Positions 12,106 to 49,132 of a DNA stretch of 64,000 nt are shown in pieces. Source of the DNA: an uncultured Methanosarcinales archaeon (lineage in GTDB: Archaea > Nanobdellota > Nanobdellia > Woesearchaeales > 21-14-0-10-32-9). A program made the position numbers and the translations under genes. The stretch lies in NCBI GenBank assembly GCA_964501945.1, contig CAZCTY010000001.1:49187-113186 (forward strand), given 5' to 3'. How positions within the stretch are numbered: the stretch's first letter is position 1; each line of letters opens with the position of its first letter. The notes under the pieces were generated by a model. It searched no databases. It was given only the letters and a program-made list of their open reading frames with translations, and was not told where the DNA came from.

Positions 12106-12154
12106 TTTTTTCTTCTCTATTTTTTATTTTTTATAAAAAAAACAAAAAAAGAAT

Positions 12155-15190: not shown

Positions 15191-18100
15191 TTAAATTATC
15201 TCAATGTAAAAAGCCAACTTCTCATTACTACCAGAATAAGTCCTAAGCGTAGCAGGCACCCTGACTTCAAAGTCATAAATACCGAAACGACCCTCGCTAC
15301 TAGGATTAATCTCAGTAACAAAAACAACAGTTTCTTTGTCTGCAGAGTCAAAACGCTCATTACCAGAATCATCACTAGTATCCCAAAGGATGCCAGTAAC
15401 AAAATCATCATACTCAGTACTCGCAACAACAGGAACATTATTAACAGGGCCACTTGGAAGATTAAAAGTACGAGTCTCAACAGGCACCTCAGAACCCGCG
15501 CCCCACGTATTCCTAATAGAATCACTAAGACCCGCCGTGCCCATAACATCATCTAACGCAGAAAAATCACCACTCACAAGGCCGCCATCAACGTTCCGAG
15601 TGAGCGCTTGCAAATCACCATAAGAAAAGGACGCATCAACATCAGAAAAGAAAACCAAACCTCCTCTACTAGAGAGATTACGATACTCAATGAACATAGA
15701 CAAATCATCCTTACCAAGAACAATATCAGAACTAGAACTACCAAAATAATACTGATAAAGCTCAACATACAAAGAATTATTAGCAACATTGTTATCAACA
15801 GTAGTTTCATTAACAACGTCCTCAGGATCAACCACCACAAAAACATTATTAGAACCAAAAGACAAATCAAAATCAGCACCAACACTTACAACATCCAAAC
15901 TACCAAGCCCAGGAACTAAAGACGAGCTAATAAACTCCCCTCCCTCAACAGGATTACCAAGATAAAAAGAAACATTAAATGACTCCTCAGCATCACTAAG
16001 ACCCTCATTAGAAACATTAGCAAAAACACTAACCTCAACACCCTCAATTAACTCATCATAATCAAACCAAATATCATCATCACGAACAACCAAGTCAGGC
16101 GCAGAAATATTCAACAAGAAGTTCTCATCCGCAAAACCAACATTATCATAAGAATCAACACACTCAACGTTCCACTCATGAATACCAATATCAACAAGAA
16201 CACCCTCAAAAGTATTAGTTTCATTACTCACAACGTTAACATCAGTAACAACTTCCTCCAAGACACCACCATTACTACCCAAAAACAAAGTACAGTTATC
16301 CAAATTAAAATCATAAGGACGATAACTAAAATCAAACAAGCCCCTACCAGCCTCAAAACCATCCTCAGGATTAATAAGTGAAACATTAGGAGGAGTCACA
16401 TCAGGTGCAACCTCAAAAGTTGTAAAACTAGTCGCATCATCATAAGATTCAGCAGACGCTAAAACAACAGACGAATACAAACCTAAATCAACCCCTTGAG
16501 TATTCCACGAAAAAGAATCACAACCACAACTACCACTAGTCTCACCACTAAAAGAATCAACAAGAACTTCTTCACCAGAGACAAGAACCTCATCAACATC
16601 AGAATCTTTGATGTAAGTAACATTTAACTCAACCCAATACAAATACATAGTAATAGTAGCAGCCCCGCCACTCTTTACAACTTCTCCCTGAAGCCTAGTC
16701 CTATTAAGCTCAGACCAAGAAAGAGAAGAATAAGACTCAGTGATATCAAACCACTGCGAAGTCGTCTTACCAATAGTACCAGAAAAACGATTTAACTCAG
16801 TATAACTAGCACCATCATCAACACTATAATGAAAAATCCTATTACTGGCGCCTCCGCTCTCAGGCACCTCATACCTAAATCTGGCCTCAACTCTTTCAAT
16901 ATCCCCAAAAGTTTCATCAATAAAATCACGCCCATGAAGCAAAACATAACGATCACCACCACCGCTAGCCTCAATTACCGCGAAAGAATCATCATCCTTA
17001 CCAAGAATACTATCCAAATCAGAAAAAGAACCCCCTTCTTCATCATCAATATCACGATCATTAGCATTAAATAAAGCACTCTCAACCAAATCAAGCTCAA
17101 CAGAAGGACCGCCGGCGTTAGGATTATCATAATAAACATAATAAGAATCATAATTAACAATGTTAGCGTCAAGATTAACAGCGAAAGATACAAAACAAGA
17201 ATCAAGCGTTTCCCCATGAACAGTAAACAAAGACTCAACAGGATCTAAAGACTCATGATTAACAAACCTTAATTCATCACAACTCTCAACGCTACCCTCA
17301 AGACCGGTAATATTAACACTAGCCACGCCATCAACTAACTCAACACCAGAAGTTTCATTCATAACAATATTTCTTCTTCTACCCCAATCAGAATCCCACC
17401 AAGGAACACCAGTTTCACCACTAATAATGAACGCATCAAAAAAAGTATTAAGAGGACTTAAAAAAGCATCAGTACTATTAACCAAAATAGACGCAGGCGT
17501 GCCCACCTCCCATGAAGCCTCAGTCGAGACTTCAATGTTAATAGTATCATCATCAACACCAGTAAAAAAACGAGTCTCACTAACACCAGTATTATCAAAT
17601 ACATCAGTACACTCAACCCTCCAAGAATAATCATCCTCAACAACGCTTAGAGAAAAAAACTGAGAGGTGAACCTAGCAACATCCTCATCAACCTGATTTA
17701 ATTCACCATTAACATACAAAGAACAACTCTCAATAGGAGATGAATCATTAACATTATAATTTAAACTCCGCGTCCCAGTAGAAATTAAAGAATTATTACC
17801 AGGACTCTCAAGCAAAACAACAGGAGGAGACACATCTAAAACATTAACAGAATAAGTAATATTATCATAAAAATAATTATCAGTCTCATTGAAAACCAAA
17901 GAAACATTATAAGAACCAGGATCCTCAAATAATAAATCTTCCTCAACAAAACCATTACCAGAAGATATTAAATCATTATTCAAATACAATTCTAAATAAC
18001 CCTCATCAGGAATAGCAACGTCTCCTGCGATGCTTACAACTTCATTTTCATCAATAACCAAATCATCCTCAACACCATTTAAAGAAAGACTAAACACTGG

Positions 18101-21100
18101 CAAAGACTTATTAACAAAATAAGAAAAAGAAGACGTCTCATTAAAATTACCAGAAGAATCATTAGCAAACCAAGAATAACTATAAAGACCAGCATCCAAA
18201 TCCTCAACTGAAAAACTATAAACACCATTAACTAAAAATAATTCTTTTTCAACAAATTCACCAGAGAAATTATGCTGAAGTAAAACAGTATCAACCCCAA
18301 AATTATCCTCCCAAGAAATATTAAAATAATAAACCCTCTCAGCATAACTAACAGGAGACTGCGGGCTAACAACGATGTCGCTATATTCAGGAGCCTCAGT
18401 ATCAACACTCAAAGAAAAATTCTCAGAGGCAAAACTCACCCTAGAACTTTTATCAACACATAAAACATTCCAAGAAAAAGAACCACTAGGAACACTAACA
18501 CTAAAAACGTTTTGTGAACCACTAACAGGACTTGAATCACTCGCGGTTTCCTCAAAAGAACCACTAACATTACTATACAAAAAACACTCATCAAGATTTT
18601 CATCAAAAGGAGTGTACACAAAATTCACATCATCAAAATTTAAAAAAGCACCATCCTCAGGAATGTTCAAATCAACCACGGGGTCAGTCAAATCAACAGT
18701 GAAAAACTCAACACTCGAAAAACCAATATTATTCTCAGAACTATTATCAACGCAAGAAACACTCCAATTATACAAACCCTCAGAAAAATCACTAAGAGAA
18801 AAAGTATTAACCTCAAAATTATCAACACTAAAACTTTGAGCATCTAACTCATCATCAACAAACAAAGAACAACTCTCAATGCCAGTCGCATCCTCAACTA
18901 AGTATTCAAATAAAATACTAGATGAATTCAAAAATTCATCACTCTCAGGATTTAAAAGAGAAATAACAGGAGGATCAGTATCCAAAGATTCAACAGTTAA
19001 AAAACGAGAATCACTAACCTCAAAGTTACCAAGAGAATCAAAACAACGAACGTTCCACTCATAATAATTATTAGATAAAAAAGTAGACATATTAAAAGGA
19101 ACCTCATCAACAATATCGCTCTTAGTTTCTCTAACAGAACCATTAACTAATAATTCACAATAATCAATACCAGAAACATCACAACACGCACCCGCAGAGA
19201 AAGTTACAACGTTAGTATCATCAATCAAAGCACCATCATCAGGACTGAACAAAGAAATATCAGGGCCGGATTGATCAATAATAAAAGACCACGCATCAGA
19301 AATACCATCATTACCAGCCTCATCAAAACAATGAACCTCCCACTCAAAAGTATTTTCAAACAACTCACGCTCAAAAGAATTAACAACACCTTCAATAGGA
19401 GAAGAATCCACATCAACAACTTCTAAGACGCCAGACTCATTTGTATGCAACTCACAATGACTAAGCGTGTTTTCCTCACTTGGAATATATGAAAAAGAAA
19501 CCAAAGAATCACTAGTTAAAAAATTATCAACAGGAGCTTCCAAACTAACAACAGGAGCAGTCCTATCAGTTATGTACTTGAAAACACTACTAGACTCAAC
19601 AGAATTACCAAATACATCATACGCAATAACCTTCCAATAATAAATGCGGTTAGCATCCAACGCGAAATCTAAAGAATACTCACTTTGAGAAATACTACTA
19701 GATGAGTAAACAAAATCAGGACTGCTAAGAGAAGGATTATCAGCAATGATTAAAGTGTAATTATCAAAATCAGGAGTCACAGTCTCCTCCCAAGACATAG
19801 TCGGATTTAACTCACGAGACTCCGTAGCATTAAGAGGATTTAACAAATCAAATTCGGTGGGAGGCACAACTTCAACCTCGAACCACAAATCAACACTTTT
19901 CTCACTGCTCTGACCAAGAGTATCGTTCGCCCAAATATTAGTTATGTTGTAAATGCCCTCATCTAAAGTATCTGTGAAAACAAAAAAGAATTCATCACCA
20001 TCTCTTTCTAACTCATGCTCAACAACAGAAGAATCAGGATACATCGCGGTTATAGAAGCAATATCAACACCGAAACTATCAGTTATACTAACACTAAAAC
20101 GAACAGACCTGTTCTGTCTTATGATTGTTTCATTAAGTGCTTCATTTTCAATTAACGGAGGCTGAGCGTTAATAAAAACAGTCCTATTATCATCAGCGAA
20201 AGCAAATCTTTCATCCTCGTTCTCACACCTAACGTTCCACTCATAAACACCATCACTAGGACTAAGACTAAAACTAGTAAGCGTATCAGTATCTACATCA
20301 CTGAGAGTAGCAGAAATATCCCATGAACCAGTAATATTAGTATAAAGATCACAAGTTAAAGTAGAATAAGTCTCATCACTAGCACTAAATGAAAAGTCTA
20401 CTGGGGTGTTAGAAACAATCTCATTATCACCAGGCGCACTCAAAGAAACCTCTGGCGGAGGCGTACCAGTATCAACTTCCAAGTAAGCCGCATAAACAAC
20501 GGCATCAGTAGGCCTACCACCACTCGCTCTTTCAACATGTCCAAAATGAACACTCAAATCATCAAGAGAACCAGAAGGATCACTCCAAGTACAACTAGAC
20601 CAAGAAGTAGAACTACCTCCTGGAACGAGATTACTACAAACAGTAGTTCCGCCTTGCCTTAAAGAATAAGTAAACTCAGCAGTATTACCAGTATTAGAAT
20701 ATACCCACAAAGTAATCTCCTCAACACCTGTCTCAACAACACTAGAAAAACCAAACTCAGACTCTTCCTCATCACCCATCCCACTTGCTATGCTGGTAGC
20801 GGTACTAGGCGCACTGGGCTGACGAGTACCTTTGCTGATTTGCGTGTAAGAAGTACCAGAACCAGAACTCCACTCAGTAGTTATATCGCTTGTAGGATCA
20901 TAATACGTAATAGGATCAATAGCCAAGTACCAAGGACGAGCCTCTTCAAATAATTTAACCTCACTTTCTTTCTCATAATCAATGAAACTTTGAAAAGCCC
21001 AAAGATACGGAATAATAAAAGGAGAATTAAAACTATATGAGGCAGAAAAATCACCATTTAAATTACTCCAAGTCAAATAAATATTATCAGCATCACGCGT

Positions 21101-22600: not shown

Positions 22601-22641
22601 AATAACAATATAATCACTTAACCTTTTTAATTCTTATTTTT

Positions 22642-24387
22642 TTAACCATTAACCGAAAACACAATCATCCCCTCACAATCAGCTACCTCAGACGGAGGCG
22701 CCAGCAATTCCCAAAAAGTACTCTGACTAACCAACTCAGAGGAAGATTGCTTCTCCAAATCTTCAAATATAATACTAAAATCAGAGGACAAAACACTTTT
22801 AGATTCAAAAGGAACACCTTCCACAGTTGAAAAACGACTATTACCAACAGGAATATCAACATCATTATCACAAAACAAAGCAAACCCAGAACCCTCAAGA
22901 GGATCACTACCACCATAACCCCTAACAAAAACACTCACAGGCATATTACCCACATTAAAAACATCCAAAGAAACCTCCTCAGAAACATCACCAGCAGGAA
23001 TTTCGCCATAATCAAGATTAAAACTAGACAAATTAATAGCATAAAGCTCATCAACAAAACTCAAATTAAAACCAGAACCACTAAGACCTTGAGCATCAAA
23101 CGAGGTAACATTACAAACCCAAGAACCATTACTCGCATAATGCAACAAATCAAAAGAACAACTAAACTCACCAATATCCCCAAAAGTACTAACTAAATCA
23201 CACTCATCATAATAAACAATTTTATCATCAAGAGAAAAATCACCAATACCTTCTAAATGAAAAAAAGCCTCAACACTAGAAATATCACCCGCGCCATTGC
23301 CGTCTTCAACCAACACATCACATGTAACCTCTTTAGTAGAACCAGGATTGAGATTTACAACATCAGGAACACTAACACTTACAACTTGAGGAGGATGAAC
23401 CTCAACGAATAAATCAAAAATAGAAGATGAACCAGTCAAAAAAGGATTATCACACTCAACAAACCAAGTATAAAAACCATTACTAAGATTAACCACGAAC
23501 TCTTGCACAACACCAGAACTAACATCAAAAACAGTTTTATTTAAAGAATCATTAATAAACAAACGACACTCATCAATACTAGAATAATCCTCAACCAAAT
23601 AAGAGAAAACAATTTCATTATCAGCCATCTCAACACTCTCATTTTCAGGATCAATTAAAGTAACATTCGGAGGAGTGTCAGGAATAACCTCAACATCAAA
23701 TACTGTATCTTTATTATTACCCTCAAACACTACATCATCACTCTCACAAAAAACAGAAACCTCCAAATCAGATGAACCAAAACCAAAACTCTCCAACTCA
23801 AAGACAACATCCACGATTTCAGATTCAGGAATTAAAGTTACAAAAAGAGAATCACTCCCTTTAACATCCATAGAATCAGTATTACTAATAAAAAGCTCAA
23901 CATCACAATTCTCAGAATCACTAACAAGGGATGAGAGCTCAACAGAGACATTAAAATCAGAATAAGAACTAACCTCAAAATTATCAACAGGCTCAGATAT
24001 ATTAACAACGACTTCAGGAGGCCTAACAATATCTAAAGAAACATTAATTTCCTCAGAGGAACCACTCAAAACCCTAAACGTCTCACCATAAAAAGAATCA
24101 TTAAACGCACGAACAAGAACCTCATCACCAGAACTCGCAGTTATAGCAAGAGAATAAAAACCCTCAAAACCAGGAACACTCGGCGCAGAAACCTCAGTGA
24201 AAAAAACCTCGCCAGTATAAGTATTATTAACAATAACAGGCACACCATCAGGCGCCCCAACGCCATTATCTAAAAACACAAAACCATCAATATTAAAAGG
24301 AACAATTGGCTGAGTTGAAACAAAAACAGAGAAACAAATAATGAGACTAAACAAAACAACAAAACCCCTCAAAATTTTAAAAATCAT
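22642..24387 (-). CDS. Secreted 581-aa surface protein; its C-terminal domain is shared with cassette family A
   Basis: The signal peptide ends in FVSTQP. An internal W-x-V-x-C module is present (YTWFVECDNPF). The C-terminal part (FSCSFDLLHYASNGSWVCNVTSFDAQG...CEGMIVFSVNG) aligns with A1/A2 (SSCTFDVIHYANSGEWFCNVSAQDSWGF...CTGTLRFTATPSA). The start overlaps the upstream gene by 4 nt. Confidence 0.7.
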   Translation of the reverse strand: MIFKILRGFVVLFSLIICFSVFVSTQPIVPFNIDGFVFLDNGVGAPDGVPVIVNNTYTGEVFFTEVSAPSVPGFEGFYSLAITASSGDEVLVRAFNDSFYGETFRVLSGSSEEINVSLDIVRPPEVVVNISEPVDNFEVSSYSDFNVSVELSSLVSDSENCDVELFISNTDSMDVKGSDSLFVTLIPESEIVDVVFELESFGFGSSDLEVSVFCESDDVVFEGNNKDTVFDVEVIPDTPPNVTLIDPENESVEMADNEIVFSYLVEDYSSIDECRLFINDSLNKTVFDVSSGVVQEFVVNLSNGFYTWFVECDNPFLTGSSSIFDLFVEVHPPQVVSVSVPDVVNLNPGSTKEVTCDVLVEDGNGAGDISSVEAFFHLEGIGDFSLDDKIVYYDECDLVSTFGDIGEFSCSFDLLHYASNGSWVCNVTSFDAQGLSGSGFNLSFVDELYAINLSSFNLDYGEIPAGDVSEEVSLDVFNVGNMPVSVFVRGYGGSDPLEGSGFALFCDNDVDIPVGNSRFSTVEGVPFESKSVLSSDFSIIFEDLEKQSSSELVSQSTFWELLAPPSEVADCEGMIVFSVNG

Positions 24388-31866: not shown

Positions 31867-31867
31867 A

Positions 31868-40329: not shown

Positions 40330-40340
40330 ACTTCATCCTC

Positions 40341-41333: not shown

Positions 41334-44300
41334 TTCTAAGCACCTCTTTTATAGCTGCCCTATCTTTCGCATGACGAATTTTCTCAGCTAATTCTTTTTC
41401 ATCAAACACGTGCTCTACCCAATTTGCAAAGTCGTTTTTCTCAGAAGTTACGTGCTTATAAAAAATATCGTCAGAAATTTTATCTAATAAATTATAAAGA
41501 TCTTTTATACTATGCAATTTTAATCCAGTCTCAAGCAAGAATGTTTTATCATCAGGCGCAATTTTTTCAAAAGCAGAGGAAACCTTAGAAGAAGTTTCAT
41601 CATCGAATTGCTCTTCTTCATCCTCTTCTTGATTCTTTTTTTCAACAGATTCATCAGATGAAGCAGCAGATTCTTTTTTAATAACGTCTTCGCTATCACT
41701 GCTTTCTTTTTTTACAGGATCTTCTTTTTCATTGCTTTCATTTTTTTCGTTTTCTTGTTCTTTGTTTTCTGCTTCAGCGTTTCCTTGTGTTTCTTTTTCA
41801 GCGCTTTCTTGTTTGTTTTCGTCGGTTGCTTCTTGTTTGTTTTCTTGTGTTTCTTTTTCGGTGTTTTCTGGTTCGTTTTCGTCGGTTTCTTTTTCTTGTT
41901 TGTCGTCATTATCGTCTTTTTTGTTTTTTGTTTCAGCACTTTCTTGTGTTTCTTTTTCTTTTTCAGTGTTTTCTGGTTCGTTTTCGTCGGTTTCTTCTTT
42001 TTTGTCTTCAGACTCTTTTTTTTCTAAAGGAGGCAGTTTTTCACCCTTGCCACGCTTATCAAGCAAATCAAGAATTTCTTTTCTATCCTTAGTATTAGCT
42101 AAATGCTCGCCTAATTCAATGTCGCCGACAGCGTTTTTAAACCAATCAGCGAAATCATTCTTTTTATCATTAACATGAAATTCAAAATCAGAGTCTTTCA
42201 TGGCTTCAATTTCAGAATACAAACTACTAGGAGTTACAACTAACATGTCATTGTTAAGCTTTAAGATTTTATCAGGAGGAACATCTTTTTTAAATTTCTC
42301 AGAAGGACTCTCTTCTTTAGAATCTCCACCACTTTCTTCTTTTTTATTTTCTTTATCAAACTTATCACGCTCACTTTGCGCCTTTTTCAAATCTTTTTCC
42401 AACTCTTCTTTAGAAACCATTTTAGGCTTTAGAATCTTAGGTTCTTTACCAATCTTATCCCACAATTTCTTTAACCTAGGTTCAAGACCCTCAATGTAAA
42501 TTTTAACCATGTTAAAATTACCAGCCTTGACTTTATCAAGTGCTAATTTAAGCTCTAACTTTAAATCAAAAACATCCTGACCTTCCTCTTCTAATTGTTC
42601 CATTTCATAAGTCATCTGATCAATTTTTTTGTTATACTCATTATACTGAGAAATTTCATCATCACTCAAACGAGCAACAGAGTGCAAGATAGGCCTGAAA
42701 GTAGTAAAATAAGGCCGACCTCTATTGTAAGCAGAGTTTTGAACCATACCAGTACCAATACTTGCCTTAACTAAGCTTTGAAGAACATCCGCGCCATACT
42801 TAGTTTTAATACGATCAAGATCTCCCTCGTCCCTAGTTCTCATCTGAATTTCTGTGTTAATGTTAGCTTTAATTTGACCAACGAAATCCGCGAGTACCTG
42901 AGATATAAGCATAACACCAATACCCCACTTCCTAAACTCACGACAAGCACGCTCAATTTGCAAGAAACCCTCACCACTACCACCAAACTTAGGCAACAAC
43001 CTGTGAACCTCATCGTAAACCAAACAAAGCCTTAAAGGCTCAGACTCATCAAAATTAGCATGAAACACCTCTCGCACAGTGTTTGCTACGAAGATATCAA
43101 TATCTTTAGGATCAAGCTTGTGAACCGCAAATACCTGAATCTCACCCGGCTTCATATATTTACGAATATCAATTAACTCACGAGCATTATCAATTTGACG
43201 AATGTTACCAACAAAAGGACGCGCATCTTTAGGCTTCATACCAAAACTCGGATACAAACCCATCAAACCTTTATTTGTAAGCTTACGAAGCATACCAGTC
43301 CATTGAGCAGTAGGATCAAAAACAATAACAGCAACATCCTTCATTAACATTTCTTCAATAATAACTTGAGCGGAAAAACTCTTACCACCACCAGTACTAC
43401 CAGCTACGATTGTGTGAGTTTTAAAATTTTCAAGATTCATATAAGACTTCTTTTCAGTCTCAGCAATCTTACCAACAAAAGCACTACGAGGCCCAGGCTT
43501 AGGCAACTCAGAATATTCAACTTTTAAATGATACTTCTTTTTAGCCTCCATCCTTTTCTTAAAAACTATTATTCCAATAATAATACCAAAGAGCAACAAA
43601 CTTCCAAGAATAGCATGCCAAACCCGCACACCCCAAAACAAAGTATATTGGTGAAATGGCAAACTAACAGTGAAAACATGACTCGAACTAGAACTCAAAT
43701 CTAAATAATTCGCAGTTACACGAATAACATACTCACCAGGAGGTAAATTATTAGGCAACTCAACGTTTCTAAGCAAAGAAACAGTAGTCTTCAAGAAAAC
43801 ATTCGCAGACTGAGTCCAAATAGTTTCCTCACCAGAAATATCTTGAATGCTAAAGAGAACATTAACAGGATACTCCCTATCAGATAACATATTAGTAAGA
43901 TCAGTTCTAAACGTGAACCTAGAACCAGAATAAATAGTTCTATCAGACATACTAATACCAATAAGAAGAGCCTGAATAGGAATTTTATCTTTATCAAGAA
44001 TTTCAATCTCAACAGGAATATTCGCATCAATATCCCCAGTTATATTAATAGTACCATTATAAATACCAGGAGTTTGATTACCAAAGAAAGTTAAAGTAAC
44101 GCGACCATCACCCCTTGCACCAATAGAAATACTGTCCCTATCAATATTAGTAATATTTTTAAAATCACCAACTAAGTCAAAATTAACCTGCATGGTGCCA
44201 TCTCTAAAACTTTGAATAACAACAGTTTCTTGAGCAAACTCTCCCTCACGAATACGCTTAGTTATACGATTAAAAGGAATCCAAAATTCCTGCCCCTCAA

Positions 44301-45459
44301 TTTCAGCAGGACGCTCAATTTGAAAAGGAACCTCACCAGGACCAACATCTTCCCCAAAATCAGGGCCTATATCAGGATGCATATCAACAAAATCAACAGG
44401 AGGCGCATCTATCTCAAGCATTATATTATGCTCAGTTTCTTCATTTAATGTAACGTTTATATCACTCTCATAAGTAGAGTAACCTTCCAAAATAGCAATT
44501 ATCTTTGACGGGCCCGCCCTAGTAGTCAAGTTATAAAAACCTTGACCATCAGTTACAGTAGAATAACCTGCAACAGTTATCAAAACATCTTCCAAAGGAT
44601 TACCAGATAAATCAGTCACAGAACCATAAACAATACCTTGCTCCTCAGGCTCATCATCCCCTCCGACACAGACATTGAAAGGATCAATAAAAACATGATA
44701 CGTAGTGGTTGAATTGTCTATAATAGGTAACAAGAATTGATAATTATAAAAACGATTATTAAAACCTCTCGAAAGAGCCTCATTTAACTCAGCGACATAA
44801 ACATAATTATCGTTTTCATCTTTTAAAATACCAGTATTAAACATACCCTCAGGTGTATCGGTGCCAACATTAGTTTTAACAGCAGGAATATTACTAATCG
44901 TTCGCTCCCCAAGAGTTATACTCATAGTTTCAGTAAAAGTCTTAGTAGCAGAATCATAATAAGACGCATCAATACCGATGAGCGCATCAATTTCTTCAGG
45001 TGATGCAGGAGTTAGAGAGTTAATAGACACCTCGGCTTCAGGAACATAACTTGCAAATAACAAATTAACCTTATCAGGCTCAACACAATCAAAAAACATA
45101 TTCGCCTCATTAGTGCTACCTTGCTCAATATCAAACATCCACGGCTGTTCTTGACCCACACCGAAAGCAGCACCATACAAACCAGCCCAATTAAAAGCAG
45201 GCTTTTTATACAATAACTCCATTTGATAAATAGTCCCGCCAATACCTTCATGATACGCAACATAACCAGTATAAATAGTAGTAGACGCGAGCAAAATAAT
45301 ACTCAAAACAAATAAAGAAATTAATAATATGTCGCTAAAAGATTTACGCTTATTCTTTTTAGGAACTGAACGATTATTAATAGCATCATCAATACTAATA
45401 TCTTTTTCCTCAAACAATTTATTTACAAAATTCCTCAAATTCCACTTCTTCTTACTCAT
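41326..45459 (-). CDS. 1377-aa membrane-anchored FtsK/HerA/VirB4-superfamily (DUF87-like) P-loop ATPase with large extracellular domain and two C-terminal KNDF-W modules
   Basis: An N-terminal TM (ILLISLFVLSIILLASTTIY) is followed by an ectodomain of about 560 aa containing a carboxypeptidase-regulatory-like beta domain (GIVYGSVTDLSGNPLEDVLITVAGYSTVTDGQGFYNL). A second TM (WHAILGSLLLFGIIIGIIVF) is followed by the ATPase core: Walker A THTIVAGSTGGGKSF, IVFDPTAQW and Walker B CLVYDEVHRLLP. Then come a coiled coil, a KNDF-W module (KNDFADWFKNAVGD), an acidic low-complexity stretch of about 170 aa and a second module (KNDFANWVEHVFDEKELAEKI). Confidence 0.8.
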   Translation of the reverse strand: MSKKKWNLRNFVNKLFEEKDISIDDAINNRSVPKKNKRKSFSDILLISLFVLSIILLASTTIYTGYVAYHEGIGGTIYQMELLYKKPAFNWAGLYGAAFGVGQEQPWMFDIEQGSTNEANMFFDCVEPDKVNLLFASYVPEAEVSINSLTPASPEEIDALIGIDASYYDSATKTFTETMSITLGERTISNIPAVKTNVGTDTPEGMFNTGILKDENDNYVYVAELNEALSRGFNNRFYNYQFLLPIIDNSTTTYHVFIDPFNVCVGGDDEPEEQGIVYGSVTDLSGNPLEDVLITVAGYSTVTDGQGFYNLTTRAGPSKIIAILEGYSTYESDINVTLNEETEHNIMLEIDAPPVDFVDMHPDIGPDFGEDVGPGEVPFQIERPAEIEGQEFWIPFNRITKRIREGEFAQETVVIQSFRDGTMQVNFDLVGDFKNITNIDRDSISIGARGDGRVTLTFFGNQTPGIYNGTINITGDIDANIPVEIEILDKDKIPIQALLIGISMSDRTIYSGSRFTFRTDLTNMLSDREYPVNVLFSIQDISGEETIWTQSANVFLKTTVSLLRNVELPNNLPPGEYVIRVTANYLDLSSSSSHVFTVSLPFHQYTLFWGVRVWHAILGSLLLFGIIIGIIVFKKRMEAKKKYHLKVEYSELPKPGPRSAFVGKIAETEKKSYMNLENFKTHTIVAGSTGGGKSFSAQVIIEEMLMKDVAVIVFDPTAQWTGMLRKLTNKGLMGLYPSFGMKPKDARPFVGNIRQIDNARELIDIRKYMKPGEIQVFAVHKLDPKDIDIFVANTVREVFHANFDESEPLRLCLVYDEVHRLLPKFGGSGEGFLQIERACREFRKWGIGVMLISQVLADFVGQIKANINTEIQMRTRDEGDLDRIKTKYGADVLQSLVKASIGTGMVQNSAYNRGRPYFTTFRPILHSVARLSDDEISQYNEYNKKIDQMTYEMEQLEEEGQDVFDLKLELKLALDKVKAGNFNMVKIYIEGLEPRLKKLWDKIGKEPKILKPKMVSKEELEKDLKKAQSERDKFDKENKKEESGGDSKEESPSEKFKKDVPPDKILKLNNDMLVVTPSSLYSEIEAMKDSDFEFHVNDKKNDFADWFKNAVGDIELGEHLANTKDRKEILDLLDKRGKGEKLPPLEKKESEDKKEETDENEPENTEKEKETQESAETKNKKDDNDDKQEKETDENEPENTEKETQENKQEATDENKQESAEKETQGNAEAENKEQENEKNESNEKEDPVKKESSDSEDVIKKESAASSDESVEKKNQEEDEEEQFDDETSSKVSSAFEKIAPDDKTFLLETGLKLHSIKDLYNLLDKISDDIFYKHVTSEKNDFANWVEHVFDEKELAEKIRHAKDRAAIKEVLRNG
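41740..42000. repeat. Intragenic imperfect tandem duplication (unit roughly 100 bp) in the acidic low-complexity region of the ATPase gene
   Basis: ggtgttttctggttcgttttcgtcggtttct at about 41861 recurs as agtgttttctggttcgttttcgtcggtttct at about 41961. The protein reads KETDENEPENTEKE...KETDENEPENTEKE. Confidence 0.5.
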
Positions 45460-48443
45460 TTTAATTTCTTCAACTCATCACCAAGCAATAAAACTTGATC
45501 CTTGAAACTTTTTTGAATATCAACATCAGCCTTATTGAAAACATCAGATAAAAGATTGTAAGTTTTAATAGCATCATCTACACTGCCTTCTTTTTGAGAG
45601 GCATGCACGCGATTAATTAAATATTCAATGTACTTTTCATTTAATAAATTCACAAGTAAAGAAATATCGTCATATACCTGATTTTTAATTTTTCCAGGAG
45701 CATTTTCATACAACATTTTAATTTCTTTGTATATAAGATTCGCACGCTCTAAATTCTGAATTTCCAAATAATCTTTAGCATCATTTATGAGAACCTTCAA
45801 CTCTTTCATCTTACGATCACTTCTAAAATTATTAACAAAACCAAACAACTTATCTTTAACATTAAAGGCATAAAACAAATAAGCCAAAACCAATATTATC
45901 AACAATAAAAACAAACCAGTGGTATGATCAACATCTCCAGCTCTTGAAGTTACCATGCCTGTAAAACTAGGAATATTGCTTCTAGAACTACTAGAAGAGA
46001 ATGCGTCCCCACCCAAAAGCAAAGTATGGGCTTTTTTAACATCATCTAAAGAAGAATGACCAACAGAGTAATAAGTTATAAAATCTGGCTTTTCTAAAAC
46101 CAATAATTCATTTCTTATAAGAGAGTCATGACTTTGCAACACAGTCAAATCAGAACGTAAATTCTCAGGCACACTTTCCAATAAAAATTGATCCCTTTTA
46201 GTCTCGCCAGTATACTCAACAGTTTTATGAACTAAAGTAATATCTTTAGTAGACCCATCCAAATAAGTAATAGTTAAATGAGCAGTGAAAGTACGAGTTC
46301 TAAAAAGATTTTGAAGCCTTTCAACTTCCCTCATGTTAACGCCGCCTTGAAGATTCCTATTTTCAAAATAAGCACTAGCAATCTCTTCCAATTCATCAGA
46401 GTCAGGATACGCAATGAACTCCTCAGATTTTTCAAGCTCAATTAATAAAGGCGTTTCTTTTTCTAATTCACGAATCAAATCTTTATATTCCTCAATTCTC
46501 TCCTCTTTTTGAACATCACTTAAATCTCGTCTCAAAGCCAAACTATTAATATCTCTTAAAATACGCTCATAATCCCTTAAACTAACTCTGAGCGTTTCCT
46601 CAACATTTAAAGCATCAGCAGCCCTTCTCGCCTCAAGCTCTAAATCATTAAAATTATCATTAGCGTTCTCAATTTTTCTCCTCAACTCACCAGCATCAAT
46701 TATATCAGATATATCATCCGCGGTAGTTGCTGAAAAACTTTCTTGAGACGCTGAAACACTCAAATCACGTACCTCAGAATCCTCATCACCACAACTAATC
46801 TGCCAACTATACTCCCCGTCATCAAGCTTTTCAACAAAAGATAGAGAGCCTTCCTTAACATCTTCTTTTTTAGCAAGATCTGCAAACCAAGAACTACCTT
46901 TTTCAGCAATTAAAAGACTACAAGTTTTTTCTTCTTCTAAAGATAAAATAGCTTCAAAACTCACTTCCTCGCGGGAGATAGATGCGCCAGCCTCAGGTGA
47001 CTGCAAAAATATAGGTGAGGTGCTATCGCTCGTGCTACTTGGGGAGGACTCAATTTTATCTAACCTAATTGTCACAGATAAATCTTCATCTAATTCAATG
47101 TCTTGATTTCTACTTGAATGACCCTCACCGCCAACTCTTAAACGATAATCATCTTCACGAAGCCTGAAAGTTACACGGCCATTACTATCAGTAAAATCAG
47201 ATTTTCTCAAATCAACAATTTGAACATCAGCATCTTCCATTACATTATTTTCATGATCTCTAACTTCAACAACCAAATCATAATACCTATCAACATCAAT
47301 TTCAAAATCTTTAACTTTCCTATTACCGCGAGAATCAACAACGATTAAAGAAACTTCGTGGGATCCAGCACTGGAGAAAGACAAATCAACCTCATCATCA
47401 GATTCAGTTTCGCCATCAAACTCCCAAGTATATTCATAAGGAGAAATACCTCCTGAAGCACTAGCTTTCAAAGTTATTTCTTCATCAACTTCCAAATCTT
47501 TTTTTCCACTCAAAGAAATATCAATAGTGTTCGTTACTTTGTATGAAACATTATGAGTAACACCAGATTCTTTTAAAATAAAATCAAGCCTATAATCTCC
47601 TGCGACGAATGCTTTTTCAAAATCAATTTTTTGCCACAACTTACCATCTTTATTGATGTTCAAATTATCAATTGTGAACTCTTCAGATTTTTCTAAGGTT
47701 TCAAAGTTAGGATTTTTCTCAGAACGCAACCAAACCTTTAATTCAAATTCTAAACCTTCCTCGCCATGAACTAAAAGATAACCTTCCTCGCCAAGAGAGA
47801 AATTTTTATCACTCAACTCAACATAAAAAGGCTCAACCACATCAACCTTTCTAATAACTTGCATAGGAGTATAATTTTCATTTTCATTGAACCTAGCGGT
47901 GATTTCATAAGTTTTGAAATCTTCAAATTTTTCACTTGACGATAATTTTGAAGCATTAGCTTTGCTCAAAACAACCTCGCCATCAATTAATAATTCTAAT
48001 TCGCCTTTAACATCAGAATCTATAGATATGTTTACAGTTTCATTTCTAAAAACAGTCAAATCTTCTGTTTTACCATTTAAAGATAAATTAAGTTTCGGCG
48101 TGGCTTTTTCAATTTCATAATTACCGGAAATATTAGTTGTGTTAGTTTCATTTCCTTTTTCCCACAAGTAATTATATTCTCCAGCGCTTAAATCATCTAT
48201 ATTTACCAAATAAGAATTTCTTTCTTTGTCATAATCAACTTTTTCCCTTGATAAAATTACTAATTTATCTTTAGATAGCTTAAACCAAACAGTATCGTTT
48301 AACTCTTCTAAATCAAGCATAAAATCATAAGATTTATCAGGCTCATAAACAGGAGATTCAGGATGGACATTACTAATAGCTGAAATAGTTGGAACTAATA
48401 GCAATATCATTAAAGTTGCCAGATAAAATATTTTGTTTTTCAT
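45456..48443 (-). CDS. 995-aa type I membrane protein with PKD-like and carboxypeptidase-regulatory-like extracellular domains, a TM helix and a cytoplasmic tail of about 130 aa
   Basis: The signal peptide ends in LLLVPTISAIS. A PKD-like segment is GGISPYEYTWEFDGETESDDEVDLSFSSAGSHEVSLIVVDSRGN. A CarboxypepD_reg-like segment is YDLVVEVRDHENNVMEDADVQIVDLRKSDFTDSNGRVTF. The TM is TGLFLLLIILVLAYLFYAF. Four-nucleotide overlaps occur at both ends. Confidence 0.75.
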   Translation of the reverse strand: MKNKIFYLATLMILLLVPTISAISNVHPESPVYEPDKSYDFMLDLEELNDTVWFKLSKDKLVILSREKVDYDKERNSYLVNIDDLSAGEYNYLWEKGNETNTTNISGNYEIEKATPKLNLSLNGKTEDLTVFRNETVNISIDSDVKGELELLIDGEVVLSKANASKLSSSEKFEDFKTYEITARFNENENYTPMQVIRKVDVVEPFYVELSDKNFSLGEEGYLLVHGEEGLEFELKVWLRSEKNPNFETLEKSEEFTIDNLNINKDGKLWQKIDFEKAFVAGDYRLDFILKESGVTHNVSYKVTNTIDISLSGKKDLEVDEEITLKASASGGISPYEYTWEFDGETESDDEVDLSFSSAGSHEVSLIVVDSRGNRKVKDFEIDVDRYYDLVVEVRDHENNVMEDADVQIVDLRKSDFTDSNGRVTFRLREDDYRLRVGGEGHSSRNQDIELDEDLSVTIRLDKIESSPSSTSDSTSPIFLQSPEAGASISREEVSFEAILSLEEEKTCSLLIAEKGSSWFADLAKKEDVKEGSLSFVEKLDDGEYSWQISCGDEDSEVRDLSVSASQESFSATTADDISDIIDAGELRRKIENANDNFNDLELEARRAADALNVEETLRVSLRDYERILRDINSLALRRDLSDVQKEERIEEYKDLIRELEKETPLLIELEKSEEFIAYPDSDELEEIASAYFENRNLQGGVNMREVERLQNLFRTRTFTAHLTITYLDGSTKDITLVHKTVEYTGETKRDQFLLESVPENLRSDLTVLQSHDSLIRNELLVLEKPDFITYYSVGHSSLDDVKKAHTLLLGGDAFSSSSSRSNIPSFTGMVTSRAGDVDHTTGLFLLLIILVLAYLFYAFNVKDKLFGFVNNFRSDRKMKELKVLINDAKDYLEIQNLERANLIYKEIKMLYENAPGKIKNQVYDDISLLVNLLNEKYIEYLINRVHASQKEGSVDDAIKTYNLLSDVFNKADVDIQKSFKDQVLLLGDELKKLK

Positions 48444-48709
48444 TTTTTAAGCTCCATTATTATGTTTTGAAGTTCTTCAAGCAATTTTTCTTTGTCTTTA
48501 GTTTCTTTTGTGTTTGAAATTTTCTGTTCTAATTGCTCTCTCATTTTTTGCACTTCGTATTTGTAGGGGGATTGATGCTGCTCACATTTTTTTCTTATGA
48601 TTGTTCTTATTTGCTCAGATAAATCTAAGTAATGATTTTCTTGGGCGAGCTCTTTTAATTCTTGAACTAACGTATTCGGGAGACGTATGCTCACAACTGT
48701 ATCTTTCAT
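48440..48709 (-). CDS. Ribbon-helix-helix transcriptional regulator (89 aa) with coiled-coil tail
   Basis: MKDTVVSIRLPNTLVQELKELAQENHYLDLSEQIRTIIRK is an RHH fold pattern. There are ATGA overlaps with the upstream RHH ORF and with the downstream 995-aa gene. Confidence 0.55.
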   Translation of the reverse strand: MKDTVVSIRLPNTLVQELKELAQENHYLDLSEQIRTIIRKKCEQHQSPYKYEVQKMREQLEQKISNTKETKDKEKLLEELQNIIMELKK

Positions 48710-48870
48710 ATCTCGCCCCCTCTTCGTTTAAGTTTTTGTTCTTGAACGTATTCGCGTAAGAATTCTCTGATTGCCTCAGATCTAGAACTGAATGTTTTTT
48801 CTTCAAGCAGAGGCTCGAGCCTTTTGAGAAGTTCTTTTGGCACCCTCACGTTTATTACTTCGGTTTTCAT
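48706..48870 (-). CDS. Ribbon-helix-helix transcriptional regulator (54 aa; below the ORF-track cutoff), first gene of the long minus-strand gene string
   Basis: Translated by hand from the minus strand: MKTEVINVRVPKELLKRLEPLLEEKTFSSRSEAIREFLREYVQEQKLKRRGGEI. This is a classic CopG-like RHH. Its TGA overlaps the ATG of the next RHH gene. Confidence 0.5.
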   Translation of the reverse strand: MKTEVINVRVPKELLKRLEPLLEEKTFSSRSEAIREFLREYVQEQKLKRRGGEI

Positions 48871-49132
48871 TATTGTCCTCAAAAAAACACTGCGTTAAAA
48901 CAAATTGTGTGTTTTTTGTAGTTTTTTATATGATTTTTGTATGACAAATGTAAGACATTTTATACCATTTTTGTATATTTGTATTACAAATGTGTGCTTT
49001 TTATACTTTTTTTGTGTGATGATAGTATATAAATGTTTTGGTTTTTAGAGAATAAAACAAAATTTACAATATGGAAAATAATTAAAAATTATTTATAAAA
49101 AAGAATTTAAACAAAACAAATATTATGATTGT
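48871..49132. promoter_or_regulatory. Divergent promoter/operator region with a repeated TTTTTGTAT / ACAAAT(T)GTGTG motif array
   Basis: acaaattgtgtgttttttgta (about 48899), atttttgtatgacaaatgt (about 48933) and atttttgtatatttgtattacaaatgtgtgc (about 48967). The TTTGTA/TACAAA half-sites are mutually inverted. TATA-like tttataaaa lies about 35 nt before the 49133 ATG. Confidence 0.4.

What the first reader, a model, noticed from the sequence alone, without database searches (positions are those of the whole stretch)
15191..48870. A 33.7-kb gene string on one strand, joined by overlaps: RHH pair, PKD membrane protein, membrane-anchored HerA/VirB4-like ATPase, coiled-coil proteins and five giant surface proteins; candidate novel surface/translocation apparatus
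Twelve consecutive minus-strand genes are joined by ATGA or other 1-17 nt overlaps, with only two short gaps. That arrangement implies a single transcription unit with translational coupling. The pairing of a membrane-anchored FtsK/HerA/VirB4-type ATPase with megadalton-scale adhesin-like proteins and dedicated regulators does not match any named archaeal secretion, archaellum/pilus or Ced/conjugation locus that I can recall. It could be a host-attachment or translocation machine of an episymbiotic archaeon.
Basis: partly seen in the sequence, partly recalled or inferred. Interest (0 to 1): 0.9.

Follow-up and report, generated by a model that had tools for sequence, protein, structure and literature searches.

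The report
Split giant-adhesin ATPase surface system
A tiny symbiotic-type archaeon (Woesearchaeota) carries one long operon that pairs a membrane-anchored motor ATPase with several huge sticky surface proteins. It is a multi-gene version of the single giant "SPEARE" proteins known from salt-loving nano-archaea, and a shared outer domain suggests how the pieces plug together.

Summary
The gene string is real: 11 (not 12) minus-strand ORFs at 15191-48882, with no gap above 41 nt and four ATGA overlaps. The core order RHH-RHH-PKD membrane protein-ATPase-(DUF5752 protein)-coiled-coil protein is conserved in about 80% of 80 Woesearchaeota/Nanoarchaeia species loci. Giant Ig-repeat proteins follow in about 60% of the loci long enough to show them.

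Three findings tie the surface proteins to the ATPase:
- In relatives, the same ATPase domain sits at the C-terminus of 2,000-6,253-aa proteins.
- The first external domain of the ATPase ("S domain") is homologous to the C-terminal domain of giants g7 and g11, and to five small secreted proteins in the window (hhalign 96.8-99.6%).
- The coiled-coil protein g6 also follows a fused giant ATPase.

A TTGTMWTACAA palindrome occurs almost only upstream of the first RHH gene, in the window and in 14 other loci.

The fused architecture is already published for Nanohaloarchaeota (SPEARE; giant proteins with a VirB4/TraG-like ATPase). This is therefore a new variant of a known kind, not a wholly new apparatus. 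What the ATPase moves or powers is unresolved. Direct homology to a bona fide SPEARE sequence could not be tested.

The parts
48937..48989 (.). Two copies of the palindrome TTGTMWTACAA (48937-48947 and 48979-48989, 42 nt apart), upstream of g1. Candidate operator of the RHH pair, next to an A/T-rich TATA-like stretch.
   Evidence: These are the only matches in the 64-kb window (0.25 expected). In 88 loci the motif occurs in 15; in 14 of those it lies within about 300 nt upstream of the g1 homologue.
48706..48882 (-). g1, a ribbon-helix-helix protein (54 aa from the ATG at 48870).
   Evidence: Pfam RHH_1 31.9 bits against a cut-off of 20.5. CdrS, aCcr1 and NikR N-domain hits are far below their cut-offs. 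A homologue is found upstream of the g2 homologue in 42 of 52 loci.
48440..48709 (-). g2, a second RHH-like protein (89 aa) with a C-terminal helical extension.
   Evidence: RHH_1 17.4 bits, below the cut-off. It has ATGA overlaps with g1 and g3 and is conserved with g1.
45456..48443 (-). g3, a single-pass membrane protein of 995 aa. It has a signal peptide, an Ig/PKD/CarboxypepD_reg ectodomain, a TM helix at 844-862 and a helical cytoplasmic tail of about 130 aa.
   Evidence: It lies directly upstream of the ATPase in 43 of 52 loci at only 22-38% identity. The best-conserved parts are aa 300-460 and the cytoplasmic stretch 876-925.
41326..45459 (-). g4, a two-pass membrane ATPase of 1377 aa. 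Order of parts: cytoplasmic N-terminus; TM1 at 44-62; external loop (S domain about aa 90-262, CarboxypepD_reg 277-348, acidic linker, two Ig-like domains 399-599); TM2 at 615-633; FtsK/HerA/VirB4-superfamily ATPase about 659-921 (Walker A 687-694, Walker B DE 816-817); helical bundle 933-1003; low-complexity stretch; two DUF5752-like modules (about 1055-1140 and 1295-1377).
40341..41333 (-). g5, a cytoplasmic protein of 330 aa: N-terminal DUF5752-like module, low-complexity middle, conserved C-terminal helices.
   Evidence: BLASTP to both g4 modules, alignment and conservation profile. A homologue lies between the ATPase and g6 in many loci.
39274..40329 (-). g6, a cytoplasmic all-helical protein of 351 aa. 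It is the most conserved partner of the ATPase.
   Evidence: 36-75% identical across loci. 202 homologues, none with a family assignment. AF2 model has four long helices, pLDDT 75. It lies within 3.5 kb downstream of the ATPase in 53 of 67 loci. It also follows the fused 4862-aa giant ATPase in L088 (hmmsearch 2.7e-48).
31868..39274 (-). g7, a secreted Ig-repeat giant of 2468 aa (Big_7, Big_13, Big_3_3, CARDB) that ends in an S-like domain (aa about 2269-2468).
   Evidence: S-family HMM 4.4e-12 at aa 2288-2467. Sg profile against the S family: 98.4%, E 4e-15; against the g4 N-terminal ectodomain: 96.8%, E 2.8e-10.
26155..31866 (-). g8, a secreted Ig-repeat giant of 1903 aa. It is a paralogue of g11 (45% over 1600 aa) with its own C-terminus and no S-like domain.
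24384..26171 (-). g9, a 595-aa surface protein with He_PIG and PGF-pre-PGF domains and a C-terminal TM anchor.
   Evidence: Its N-terminal 120 aa are 32% identical to g10.
22642..24387 (-). g10, a 581-aa secreted protein whose C-terminal 250 aa form a 'T domain', homologous to the free ~300-aa T proteins in the window.
   Evidence: hmmsearch 2.7e-56; BLASTP 35% over 237 aa.
15191..22600 (-). g11, a secreted Ig-repeat giant of 2469 aa (Big_7, CARDB, Filamin/MG2-like) that ends in an S-like domain.
   Evidence: Its C-terminal 400 aa are 32% identical to g7. Sg HMM 3.9e-82 (g11 was in the seed). The same domain sits at the extreme C-terminus of the complete 2460-aa giant of L036 (2.5e-62).
14211..15179 (+). 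Neighbour, convergent with g11: an archaeal/SipW-type signal peptidase I with an unusual N-terminal cytoplasmic DUF5752-like module, a TM helix and a coiled coil.
   Evidence: TIGR02228 56.7 bits against a cut-off of 51.85; SipW 4e-11. Module alignment. Homologues lie next to the cluster in 6 loci, in two (L024, L026) directly after g6.
10441..12931 (-). Neighbouring triplet of small secreted proteins: T (10441-11340), S (11359-12105), S (12155-12931).
   Evidence: The same T/S sets lie beside the ATPase cluster in 14 loci. In several they sit where the giants sit here; in L018 an S gene lies between g3 and g4; in L077 one lies directly after g6.
52392..56349 (-). Second T-S-S set (52392-53267, 53270-53980, 54009-54731), a wHTH gene (54750-55385) and a further S gene (55594-56349).
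13164..14087 (-). Cytoplasmic 307-aa protein with a C-terminal DUF5752-like module.
   Evidence: 46% identity over 80 aa to the last module of g4.
7715..10444 (+). A 909-aa single-pass membrane protein (signal peptide, Ig/FN3-like ectodomain, TM helix) whose cytoplasmic tail ends in a DUF5752-like module.

Best explanation
This is the Woesearchaeal, multi-gene ('split') form of the giant membrane-anchored ATPase proteins described in Nanohaloarchaeota as SPEARE proteins.

Shown:
- One compact, conserved gene string encodes two RHH proteins, a single-pass Ig/PKD membrane protein (g3), a two-pass membrane protein (g4), two cytoplasmic helical partners (g5, g6), and secreted Ig-repeat proteins of 60-270 kDa.
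- The cytoplasmic half of g4 is an apparently catalytically intact FtsK/HerA/VirB4-superfamily ATPase.
- The 550-aa external loop of g4 begins with an 'S domain'. Giants g7 and g11 end in a homologous S-like domain. The window also encodes five small secreted S proteins.
- In related genomes the same ATPase is covalently fused behind ectodomains of 2,000-5,600 aa.
- g6 is the constant partner of the ATPase in both split and fused forms.

Inferred:
- The ATPase forms a hexamer in the membrane. Its external S domains bind the S-like ends of the giants and of the small S proteins. The long adhesin arms are thus mounted non-covalently on an ATP-driven base.
- DUF5752-like cytoplasmic modules on g4, g5, a dedicated signal peptidase and other membrane proteins hold the accessory proteins at this base.
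- The RHH pair autoregulates the operon through the TTGTMWTACAA palindromes.
- The assembly serves cell-cell (host) attachment.

The ATPase most likely drives passage of a macromolecule at the contact site, as its relatives HerA, VirB4, TrwB, FtsK and EccC all translocate DNA or protein. Mechanical work on the arms is not excluded.
For: Operon and conservation:
- At least 420 species genomes carry the ATPase family.
- Core order is kept in about 80% of loci and giants follow g6 in 23 of 38 loci.

ATPase class:
- Pfam DUF87 scores 41.9 bits.
- Walker A, Walker B and downstream motifs are nearly invariant.

Rosetta-stone fusions:
- Of the 150 best relatives among 1.84 billion representatives, dozens are 2,000-6,253 aa long with the ATPase at the C-terminal end.
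- Those with names are from Woesearchaeota.
- P0209 has an N-terminal subtilase, and its ATPase region gives the same weak ResIII-type hit that led to the SPEARE 'restriction enzyme' label (PMC6642349; PMC10266531).

Shared S domain:
- Evidence is, with negative controls.
- The domain is on the ATPase in 67 loci and in 25 representatives of 875-1730 aa, but not in the fused giants. This is the complementary pattern expected if S-S docking replaces the covalent link.
- In some genomes S/T genes lie inside the core operon, directly after g6, or a few kb downstream of it where giants sit here.

Other support:
- g6 follows the fused giant in L088.
Against: - No binding, expression or localisation data exist. 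S-S docking is inferred from homology and complementary distribution only.
- g8, g9 and g10 lack the S-like end.
- About 40% of loci with room show no giant within 6 kb of g6.
- The conserved set has no polytopic membrane protein. g3 has one TM helix and g4 has two, so a classical translocation channel is not evident.
- Direct sequence comparison with a Nanohaloarchaeal SPEARE protein was not possible. That link rests on architecture and on the papers' statements.
- No host or symbiotic lifestyle is shown for this organism.
- The fold of the S domain matched nothing informative.
Confidence: 0.55

Rival explanations
1. Envelope-building machine. The Ig-repeat giants and the S/T proteins are the organism's own wall or S-layer-like coat. 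The ATPase platform, together with its dedicated signal peptidase, assembles or anchors that coat. No host contact or transport is involved.
For: - The family is near-universal in the lineage, with at least 420 species genomes, as expected for a housekeeping envelope function.
- The giants are acidic, rich in N-glycosylation sequons (1.9-3.4 per 100 aa) and have signal peptides.
- g9 has a PGF-pre-PGF domain typical of archaeal surface proteins.
- A SipW-type signal peptidase recurs next to the cluster.
- Small S proteins share a conserved 'AQP(T/L/A)G' cleavage region.
Against: - Sec-exported wall proteins do not normally need a cytoplasmic HerA/VirB4-type ATPase.
- The giants vary strongly in number, size and sequence between genomes, which is more typical of adhesins than of a lattice protein.
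- The published relatives are interpreted as host-interaction proteins (PMC6642349, PMC10266531).
Confidence: 0.2
2. The conserved core (RHH pair, g3, g4, g5, g6) has a function of its own, for example an FtsK-like DNA pump for segregation or division. It merely sits next to a hypervariable surface-protein island.
For: - The core is conserved much more widely than the giants.
- RHH proteins resemble CdrS/aCcr1-type cell-cycle regulators at low score.
- HerA and FtsK relatives pump DNA.
Against: - The ATPase itself carries the S domain shared with the giants and the S proteins.
- Relatives fuse giant ectodomains to the ATPase.
- S genes occur inside the core operon in L018 and directly after g6 in L077.
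- CdrS and aCcr1 scores are far below their cut-offs.
Confidence: 0.1
3. A divergent type IV secretion, conjugation or Ced-like DNA-transfer system. The RHH proteins would act as DNA-processing accessory factors and g4 as the coupling or VirB4 ATPase.
For: - The two-TM-then-ATPase topology resembles type IV coupling proteins.
- Weak NCBIfam hits to CedD and TraD appear.
- PMC10266531 proposes a T4SS-like 'straw'.
Against: - Searches found no relaxase, VirB6-, VirB8-, VirB9- or VirB10-like protein, CedA-like polytopic protein, pilin, or CagE_TrbE_VirB N-domain.
- CedD scored 28 bits against a cut-off of 600, and TrwB_AAD_bind is below its cut-off.
- The best plasmid matches are only 24-27% identical DUF87 proteins on non-mobilisable plasmids.
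- The cluster is a lineage-wide chromosomal feature, not a mobile element.
Confidence: 0.08
4. A surface motor. ATP hydrolysis in the cytoplasmic hexamer is transmitted through the TM helices to move the giant 'legs'. This would give gliding, pulling or retraction on a host surface, analogous to the Mycoplasma mobile Gli123/349/521 machinery.
For: - The cluster combines an ATPase, cytoplasmic coiled-coil proteins and 200-270-kDa surface proteins in one gene string.
- The lack of any polytopic channel component fits a mechanical rather than a transport role.
- The ectodomain is a loop held by TM helices at both ends, in g4 and in several fused giants.
Against: This is purely analogical. No homology to Gli proteins or to their F1-like motor was found, and no motility data exist.
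Confidence: 0.05

Closest known systems
SPEARE proteins / giant membrane-anchored ATPase proteins of Nanohaloarchaeota (NAR1_1133, SVXNc_0300, BNXNv_0298; PMC6642349, PMC10266531)
   Same: - A long adhesin-type Ig-repeat ectodomain, a TM helix, a cytoplasmic FtsK/HerA/VirB4-superfamily ATPase as the most conserved part, then a coiled coil.
- DPANN lineage.
- Hamm et al. report similar cytoplasmic domains in Woesearchaeota.
- Woesearchaeal fused relatives of g4 reach 6,253 aa, and one (P0209) has an N-terminal subtilase.
- Proteomics of the Nanohaloarchaeal protein found the ecto and TM/cytoplasmic parts in different size fractions. That would fit a separable assembly, though the authors also allow a preparation artefact.
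   Different: - Here the system is split over at least 11 genes. The ATPase has only a 550-aa external loop, and the giants are separate secreted proteins.
- A shared S domain appears to replace the covalent link.
- There is a conserved accessory set (RHH pair, g3, g5, g6) and a DUF5752-like module network that the SPEARE papers do not describe.
- There is no second VirB4-type ATPase downstream and no laminin-G domain.
HerA (HerA-NurA DNA-end resection helicase; anti-phage HerA systems; DptH/DndH)
   Different: - No HAS-barrel N-domain.
- No NurA, Sir2 or nuclease partner.
- It is membrane-embedded with an ectodomain.
Type IV coupling proteins and VirB4 (TrwB, VirD4, DotL, TcpA, VirB4)
   Different: - The loop is 550 aa, up to 5,600 aa in relatives, rather than tens of residues.
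- No other T4SS parts and no relaxase are present.
- Family HMMs score below their cut-offs.
Type VII secretion ATPase EssC/EccC
   Different: There is one ATPase domain instead of three, no FHA domain, and no WXG100/LXG substrates or EccD-type polytopic protein. The candidate partners here carry Sec signal peptides.
arCOG01314 / MoxR-vWA predicted archaeal secretion complex (PMC5898192)
   Same: A predicted archaeal membrane complex with Ig-domain surface or S-layer-like proteins.
   Different: It is built around a MoxR AAA+ ATPase, vWA and DUF4350 proteins. None of these is present here.

Membership tests
SPEARE-type giant membrane-anchored ATPase proteins (DPANN) | Cytoplasmic P-loop ATPase of the FtsK/HerA/VirB4 superfamily placed directly after a TM helix | tested here: met
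SPEARE-type giant membrane-anchored ATPase proteins (DPANN) | Coiled-coil or helical region after the ATPase | tested here: met
   Helices 933-1003 in the model.
SPEARE-type giant membrane-anchored ATPase proteins (DPANN) | Multi-thousand-residue adhesin ectodomain covalently joined to the ATPase in one polypeptide | tested here: not met
   The g4 ectodomain is about 550 aa and the giants are separate genes. The feature is met in Woesearchaeal relatives P0198, P0209, P0216 and others.
SPEARE-type giant membrane-anchored ATPase proteins (DPANN) | Specific sequence homology of the ATPase domain to a bona fide Nanohaloarchaeal SPEARE protein | not testable with these tools
   No SPEARE sequence could be retrieved. 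The link rests on PMC6642349 (similar sequences in Woesearchaeota) and on the ResIII-type weak hit in P0209.
SPEARE-type giant membrane-anchored ATPase proteins (DPANN) | Laminin-G and serine-protease domains in the ecto part (original definition) | tested here: not met
   Only Ig-type domains are found in g7, g8 and g11. Peptidase_S8 is found in relative P0209.
HerA (HerA-NurA type) | HAS-barrel N-domain before the RecA-like core | tested here: not met
   Only about 20 residues of beta-hairpin lie between TM2 and Walker A.
HerA (HerA-NurA type) | Pfam DUF87 / HerA central domain above the gathering score | tested here: met
   41.9 bits against a cut-off of 23.2, covering only aa 662-727.
HerA (HerA-NurA type) | Adjacent NurA or other nuclease partner | tested here: not met
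   None among g1-g11 or the flanking genes.
Type IV secretion / conjugation | VirB4 N-terminal domain (CagE_TrbE_VirB) or T4CP all-alpha domain above cut-off | tested here: not met
   No PF03135 hit. TrwB_AAD_bind scores 13.6 bits against a cut-off of 20.5.
Type IV secretion / conjugation | Polytopic channel protein, VirB8/9/10-like scaffold, pilin, relaxase | tested here: not met
   No such Pfam or NCBIfam hits in the cluster.
Ced DNA-import system | Ced ATPase at equivalog score together with a polytopic CedA | tested here: not met
   NF053655 CedD scores 28.1 bits against a cut-off of 600. No polytopic membrane protein is present.
Type VII secretion (EssC/EccC) | Three tandem FtsK/SpoIIIE ATPase domains, FHA domain, WXG100 substrates | tested here: not met
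   There is a single ATPase domain. FtsK_SpoIIIE scores 17 bits against a cut-off of 24.
Ribbon-helix-helix (CopG/RHH_1) DNA-binding proteins | RHH_1 profile above cut-off | tested here: met
   g1 scores 31.9 bits against 20.5 and meets the cut-off. g2 scores 17.4 bits, which is inconclusive.
Archaeal signal peptidase I (neighbour 14211-15179) | TIGR02228 above its trusted cut-off | tested here: met
   56.7 bits against 51.85. SM..P, HR and GDN motifs are visible.

The most novel reading that the evidence does not exclude
The S domain may be a self-associating building block. On this reading, rings of S domains from the ATPase hexamer, the five small S paralogues and the giants' C-termini stack into an extracellular stalk or tube on top of the membrane ATPase. 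T-domain proteins and a dedicated, platform-tethered signal peptidase would complete the assembly. The whole would be a DPANN-specific, contact-dependent conduit whose envelope-spanning parts are unrelated to T4SS, T7SS, Ced or type IV filaments. Powered by the HerA-like motor and its g6 stalk partner, it would move host DNA or other macromolecules.
Probability: 0.15. Interest if true: 0.9.

Novelty: new variant of a known kind. Interest (0 to 1): 0.62.

Why it matters
DPANN archaea make up a large share of archaeal diversity. Most are thought to live attached to hosts, yet the molecular basis of attachment and exchange is unknown. The only candidate machines so far are pilus-like loci and the enigmatic SPEARE giants of Nanohaloarchaeota.

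This cluster shows three things:
- The SPEARE-type ATPase belongs to a much larger, lineage-wide family in Woesearchaeota.
- It has a fixed set of partners: g6, g3, g5 and an RHH pair with a recognisable operator.
- Giant adhesins can be either fused to the ATPase or encoded separately with a shared end domain.

That gives concrete, testable hypotheses: S-S docking, an ATPase-g6 complex, and RHH-operator binding. It also gives smaller, tractable proteins for structural work on a system that is otherwise locked in polypeptides of up to about 1 MDa.

Tried and rejected
- **arCOG01314/arCOG02884/arCOG02487 'novel secretion system' (PMC6393860, PMC5898192).** Followed as a lead and rejected. It is MoxR/vWA/DUF4350-based, and none of those parts is here.
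- **g6 as an ESCRT-III/PspA-like protein.** The idea came from its N-terminus MGLFKKK (from memory) and is not supported. Pfam scans of 46 members gave only generic coiled-coil hits. Foldseek found no PDB hits and a PDB profile search found nothing.
- **g1/g2 as CdrS or aCcr1 cell-cycle regulators.** Scores are far below the cut-offs.
- **Mobile element or plasmid origin.** There are no tRNA or Rfam features, and plasmid tblastn gave only 24-27% identical DUF87 hits.
- **Exact look-up of g4.** Nothing was on record. The source contig was found through g6 instead: ENA ERZ27266011 k141_11777, 79 kb.
- **Homologue search with the g7 S-like end.** It returned only four fragments. These were used as extra seed sequences.
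- **Sigma-70 promoter and intrinsic-terminator scan.** It is uninformative for an archaeon and was close to the shuffle expectation.
- **Literature searches.** Searches for this operon in Woesearchaeota found no description. DUF5752 appears in no paper in the library.

Full report
**The observation**

The window (34% G+C, strongly negative GC skew over the region) carries 11 maximal minus-strand ORFs from 48882 down to 15191. The junctions are -4, -4, -4, -8, +11, -1, +1, -17, -4 and +41 nt, and four are ATGA overlaps. I count 11 genes rather than 12 and three small gaps rather than two. With the start used in the public gene call (2464 aa), the g6/g7 junction is also a gap of about 11 nt. No tRNA or Rfam family lies in the window. 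The 250-nt region upstream of g1 is a divergent intergenic region.

**What the products are**

- g1 is a ribbon-helix-helix protein above the Pfam cut-off. g2 is RHH-like but below it.
- g3 (995 aa) has a signal peptide, PKD and CarboxypepD_reg domains, one TM helix and a helical cytoplasmic tail of about 130 aa.
- g4 (1377 aa) has TM helices at 44-62 and 615-633 with a 550-aa external loop between them. A DUF87/HerA-type ATPase follows (Walker A GSTGGGKS at 687, Walker B DE at 816-817, both nearly invariant among 38 homologues). After that come a helical region, a low-complexity stretch and two DUF5752-like modules.
- An AlphaFold2 model of g4 residues 1-1010 (pLDDT 77.6) shows no HAS barrel.
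- g5 begins with a DUF5752-like module.
- g6 is all-helical, with four long helices (pLDDT 75), and has no family assignment.
- g7 (2468 aa), g8 (1903 aa) and g11 (2469 aa) are secreted, acidic, sequon-rich Ig-repeat proteins with Big_7, Big_13, Big_3_3, CARDB and Filamin/MG2-like domains.
- g8 and g11 are paralogues, 45% identical over 1600 aa. g7 and g11 share their last 400 aa.
- g9 (595 aa) has He_PIG and PGF-pre-PGF domains and a C-terminal TM anchor. g10 (581 aa) is secreted.
- 'Megadalton-scale' is therefore an overstatement for any single product.

**Organism and conservation**

The ATPase is 45-75% identical to proteins of Woesearchaeota/Nanoarchaeia MAGs. The window matches an ENA metagenome contig of 79 kb. 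A scan of one genome per species found at least 420 genomes with a relative. The 80 best are almost all labelled Woesearchaeota or Nanoarchaeota.

I compared the window proteins with all ORFs of these loci:
- g3 lies directly upstream of the ATPase in 43 of 52 loci with room upstream.
- The g1-g2 pair lies upstream of g3 in 42 of those 52.
- g6 lies within 3.5 kb downstream in 53 of 67 loci with room downstream.
- A giant Ig-repeat ORF lies within 6 kb after g6 in 23 of 38 loci long enough to show it.
- Median junctions are -4 to -11 nt.

The flanking genes differ between genomes. The cluster is therefore a conserved chromosomal module of the lineage, not a local accident and not an obvious mobile element.

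**Evidence that the surface proteins belong to the ATPase**

1. *Fusions.* An exhaustive HMMER search with the ATPase domain found 1266 representatives, 368 of them at E <= 1e-30. Among the best 150, dozens are 2,000-6,253 aa long with the ATPase near the C-terminal end. Examples are P0216 (6253 aa), P0239 (5743 aa) and P0198 (4862 aa). Those with names come from Woesearchaeota. Several have an N-terminal TM or signal sequence and a second TM just before the ATPase. P0209 adds an N-terminal subtilase.
2. *A shared domain.* Five small secreted proteins in the window form the 'S family': 11359-12105, 12155-12931, 53270-53980, 54009-54731 and 55594-56349. They are homologous to the first external domain of g4 (hmmsearch 2e-11; profile-profile 99.6%, E 8.5e-23) and to the extreme C-terminus of g7 (4.4e-12) and g11. 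A profile of the giants' ends matches the S family (98.4%, E 4e-15) and the g4 domain (96.8%, E 2.8e-10). It also finds the same domain at the very end of the complete 2460-aa giant of L036. Other parts of g4 give 1.5% or less.
3. *Complementary distribution.* The S domain is on the ATPase in 67 loci and in 25 representatives of 875-1730 aa. It is absent from the fused giants. This is the pattern expected if S-S contact replaces a covalent link.
4. *Gene position.* In some genomes small S and T genes lie a few kb downstream of g6, where the giants sit here. One S gene lies between g3 and g4 in L018, and one lies directly after g6 in L077. The C-terminal 250 aa of g10 belong to the T family (2.7e-56).
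5. *A constant partner.* The gene after the fused 4862-aa ATPase in L088 is a g6 homologue (2.7e-48). ATPase plus g6 is therefore the invariant pair.

**Further parts of the picture**

- A roughly 75-aa cytoplasmic module, the C-terminal part of Pfam DUF5752, occurs six times in the window. It is present twice on g4 and once on g5. It is also on a 307-aa protein (13164-14087), on the cytoplasmic tail of a 909-aa membrane protein (7715-10444), and at the N-terminus of the gene convergent with g11 (14211-15179).
- That last gene is an archaeal/SipW-type signal peptidase I above its trusted cut-off. It recurs beside the cluster in six loci, in two (L024, L026) directly after g6.
- The small S proteins share a conserved 'AQP(T/L/A)G' stretch at the end of their signal peptides. 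This may be the site cut by the signal peptidase.
- The palindrome TTGTMWTACAA occurs twice upstream of g1, 42 nt apart, and nowhere else in the 64 kb. Across about 1.6 Mb of fetched loci it occurs in 15 loci. In 14 of those it lies within about 300 nt upstream of the g1 homologue. That is good comparative evidence for a dedicated operator, most simply that of the RHH pair.

**Comparison with the literature**

- Hamm et al. (PMC6642349) described SPEARE proteins of Nanohaloarchaeota, up to 8,553 aa. They are mostly extracytoplasmic, with a TM helix near the C-terminus. The most conserved part is a cytoplasmic region read as a type III restriction enzyme domain, and similar sequences occur in Woesearchaeota.
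- The same paper found the ecto and TM/cytoplasmic parts in different gel size fractions.
- La Cono and colleagues (PMC10266531) re-analysed these proteins and two new ones (9,409 and 8,880 aa). They concluded that the cytoplasmic part is a VirB4/TraG-like ATPase followed by a coiled coil, and proposed a type IV-like 'straw'.
- The architecture of the Woesearchaeal fused relatives found here is the same. In P0209 the ATPase region even gives the weak ResIII-type hit that explains the original 'restriction enzyme' label.
- The theme 'giant adhesin plus membrane HerA/VirB4-like ATPase in DPANN' is thus known.
- I found no description of four things: the split operon, its accessory set (RHH pair, g3, g5, g6), the S/T domains, and the DUF5752-like module network including a signal peptidase.
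- I could not obtain a Nanohaloarchaeal SPEARE sequence, so family membership is inferred and not tested.

**Mechanism**

Shown: the gene string is conserved and compact, the ATPase looks catalytically intact, the ATPase shares an external domain with secreted proteins, fused and split forms both exist, g6 is a constant partner, and there is a conserved palindrome.

Inferred:
- The ATPase forms a hexamer, like its structural relatives.
- S-S docking mounts giants and small S proteins on the ATPase base.
- DUF5752-like modules gather g5, the signal peptidase and other membrane proteins at the base.
- The RHH pair autoregulates the operon.
- The assembly serves host contact.

What the ATPase powers is open. 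Its relatives all translocate DNA or protein, which favours transport. However, the conserved set has no polytopic membrane protein, with at most two TM helices per ATPase protomer and one in g3. That weakens a classical channel model and leaves room for a mechanical or assembly role.

**Rivals**

The rivals are an envelope-building role, a core operon that is only adjacent to surface genes, a divergent T4SS or Ced system, and a Mycoplasma-like surface motor. Each is set out separately with its evidence. The second and third are contradicted by tests done here.

**Verdict**

It is best called a new, split variant of the SPEARE-type system, with several undescribed components. It is of moderate to high interest because it makes the system dissectable.

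Noticed in passing
window 10441-12931 (-) and 52392-56349 (-): Two sets of small secreted proteins with no Pfam or NCBIfam family: T (~300 aa) followed by S and S (~240 aa), plus an extra S gene at 55594-56349. The S proteins share the signal-peptide end 'AQP(T/L/A)G' and the C-terminus 'YYF(Y/W/F)xE(I/L)'. They may be filament or stalk subunits.
   Followed up: partly
window 14211-15179 (+): An archaeal/SipW-type signal peptidase I fused to an N-terminal cytoplasmic DUF5752-like module, a TM helix and a coiled coil. This is an unusual architecture, and the gene recurs beside the cluster in six other genomes.
   Followed up: partly
window 7715-10444 (+), 13164-14087 (-), 14211-15179 (+), g4 and g5: A ~75-aa cytoplasmic module (motif ...F..HV....NDFa.Wv....LA..I, matching the C-terminal part of Pfam DUF5752) occurs six times in the window, on otherwise unrelated proteins. 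DUF5752 is mentioned in no paper in the library.
   Followed up: partly
L068, L072, L076, L082, L084 (also L066, L071): A second, paralogous form of the system: a longer g3-like protein (1177-1413 aa) followed by a short ATPase (~780 aa) that lacks the S domain. L068 carries both forms.
   Followed up: partly
window 49133-49843 (+): A 236-aa protein transcribed divergently from the operon promoter. It has an N-terminal signal or TM segment, a second TM helix and a C-terminal winged-helix domain (DUF7343/MarR-like), so it may be a membrane-bound regulator. It has no homologue in the fetched loci.
   Followed up: no
window 49921-50838 (+): A 305-aa secreted, extremely Glu/Arg-rich helical protein with no family hit and no homologue in the fetched loci.
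   Followed up: no
window 51030-52250 (-): A 406-aa protein with a signal peptide, CARDB-like beta domains, a C-terminal TM helix and a poly-Lys tail. It recurs near the cluster in L069, L079 and L081 at 30-36% identity.
   Followed up: no
window 3042-4808 (+): A 588-aa ORF that is 41-45% identical to ORFs lying near the ATPase cluster in L084, L079, L076 and L067. Its function was not examined.
   Followed up: no
P0209 (4192 aa, JGI metagenome): A fused giant ATPase with an N-terminal Peptidase_S8 domain. It also has a DUF835 domain after the ATPase, where g4 has DUF5752-like modules.
   Followed up: no
L005, L008, L011, L023 and other 'binchicken' MAG records: Contigs that carry this Woesearchaeota-type cluster at 48-62% ATPase identity are titled 'Methanosarcinales' or 'Saccharibacteria'. 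These are probably mis-binned or mislabelled records.
   Followed up: no
window 39274-40329 (g6): g6 starts with a conserved MGLFKKK (F4 nearly invariant) and ends in a basic amphipathic KKGFFKKLFKKK. This suggests membrane contact at both ends of a long helical protein.
   Followed up: partly
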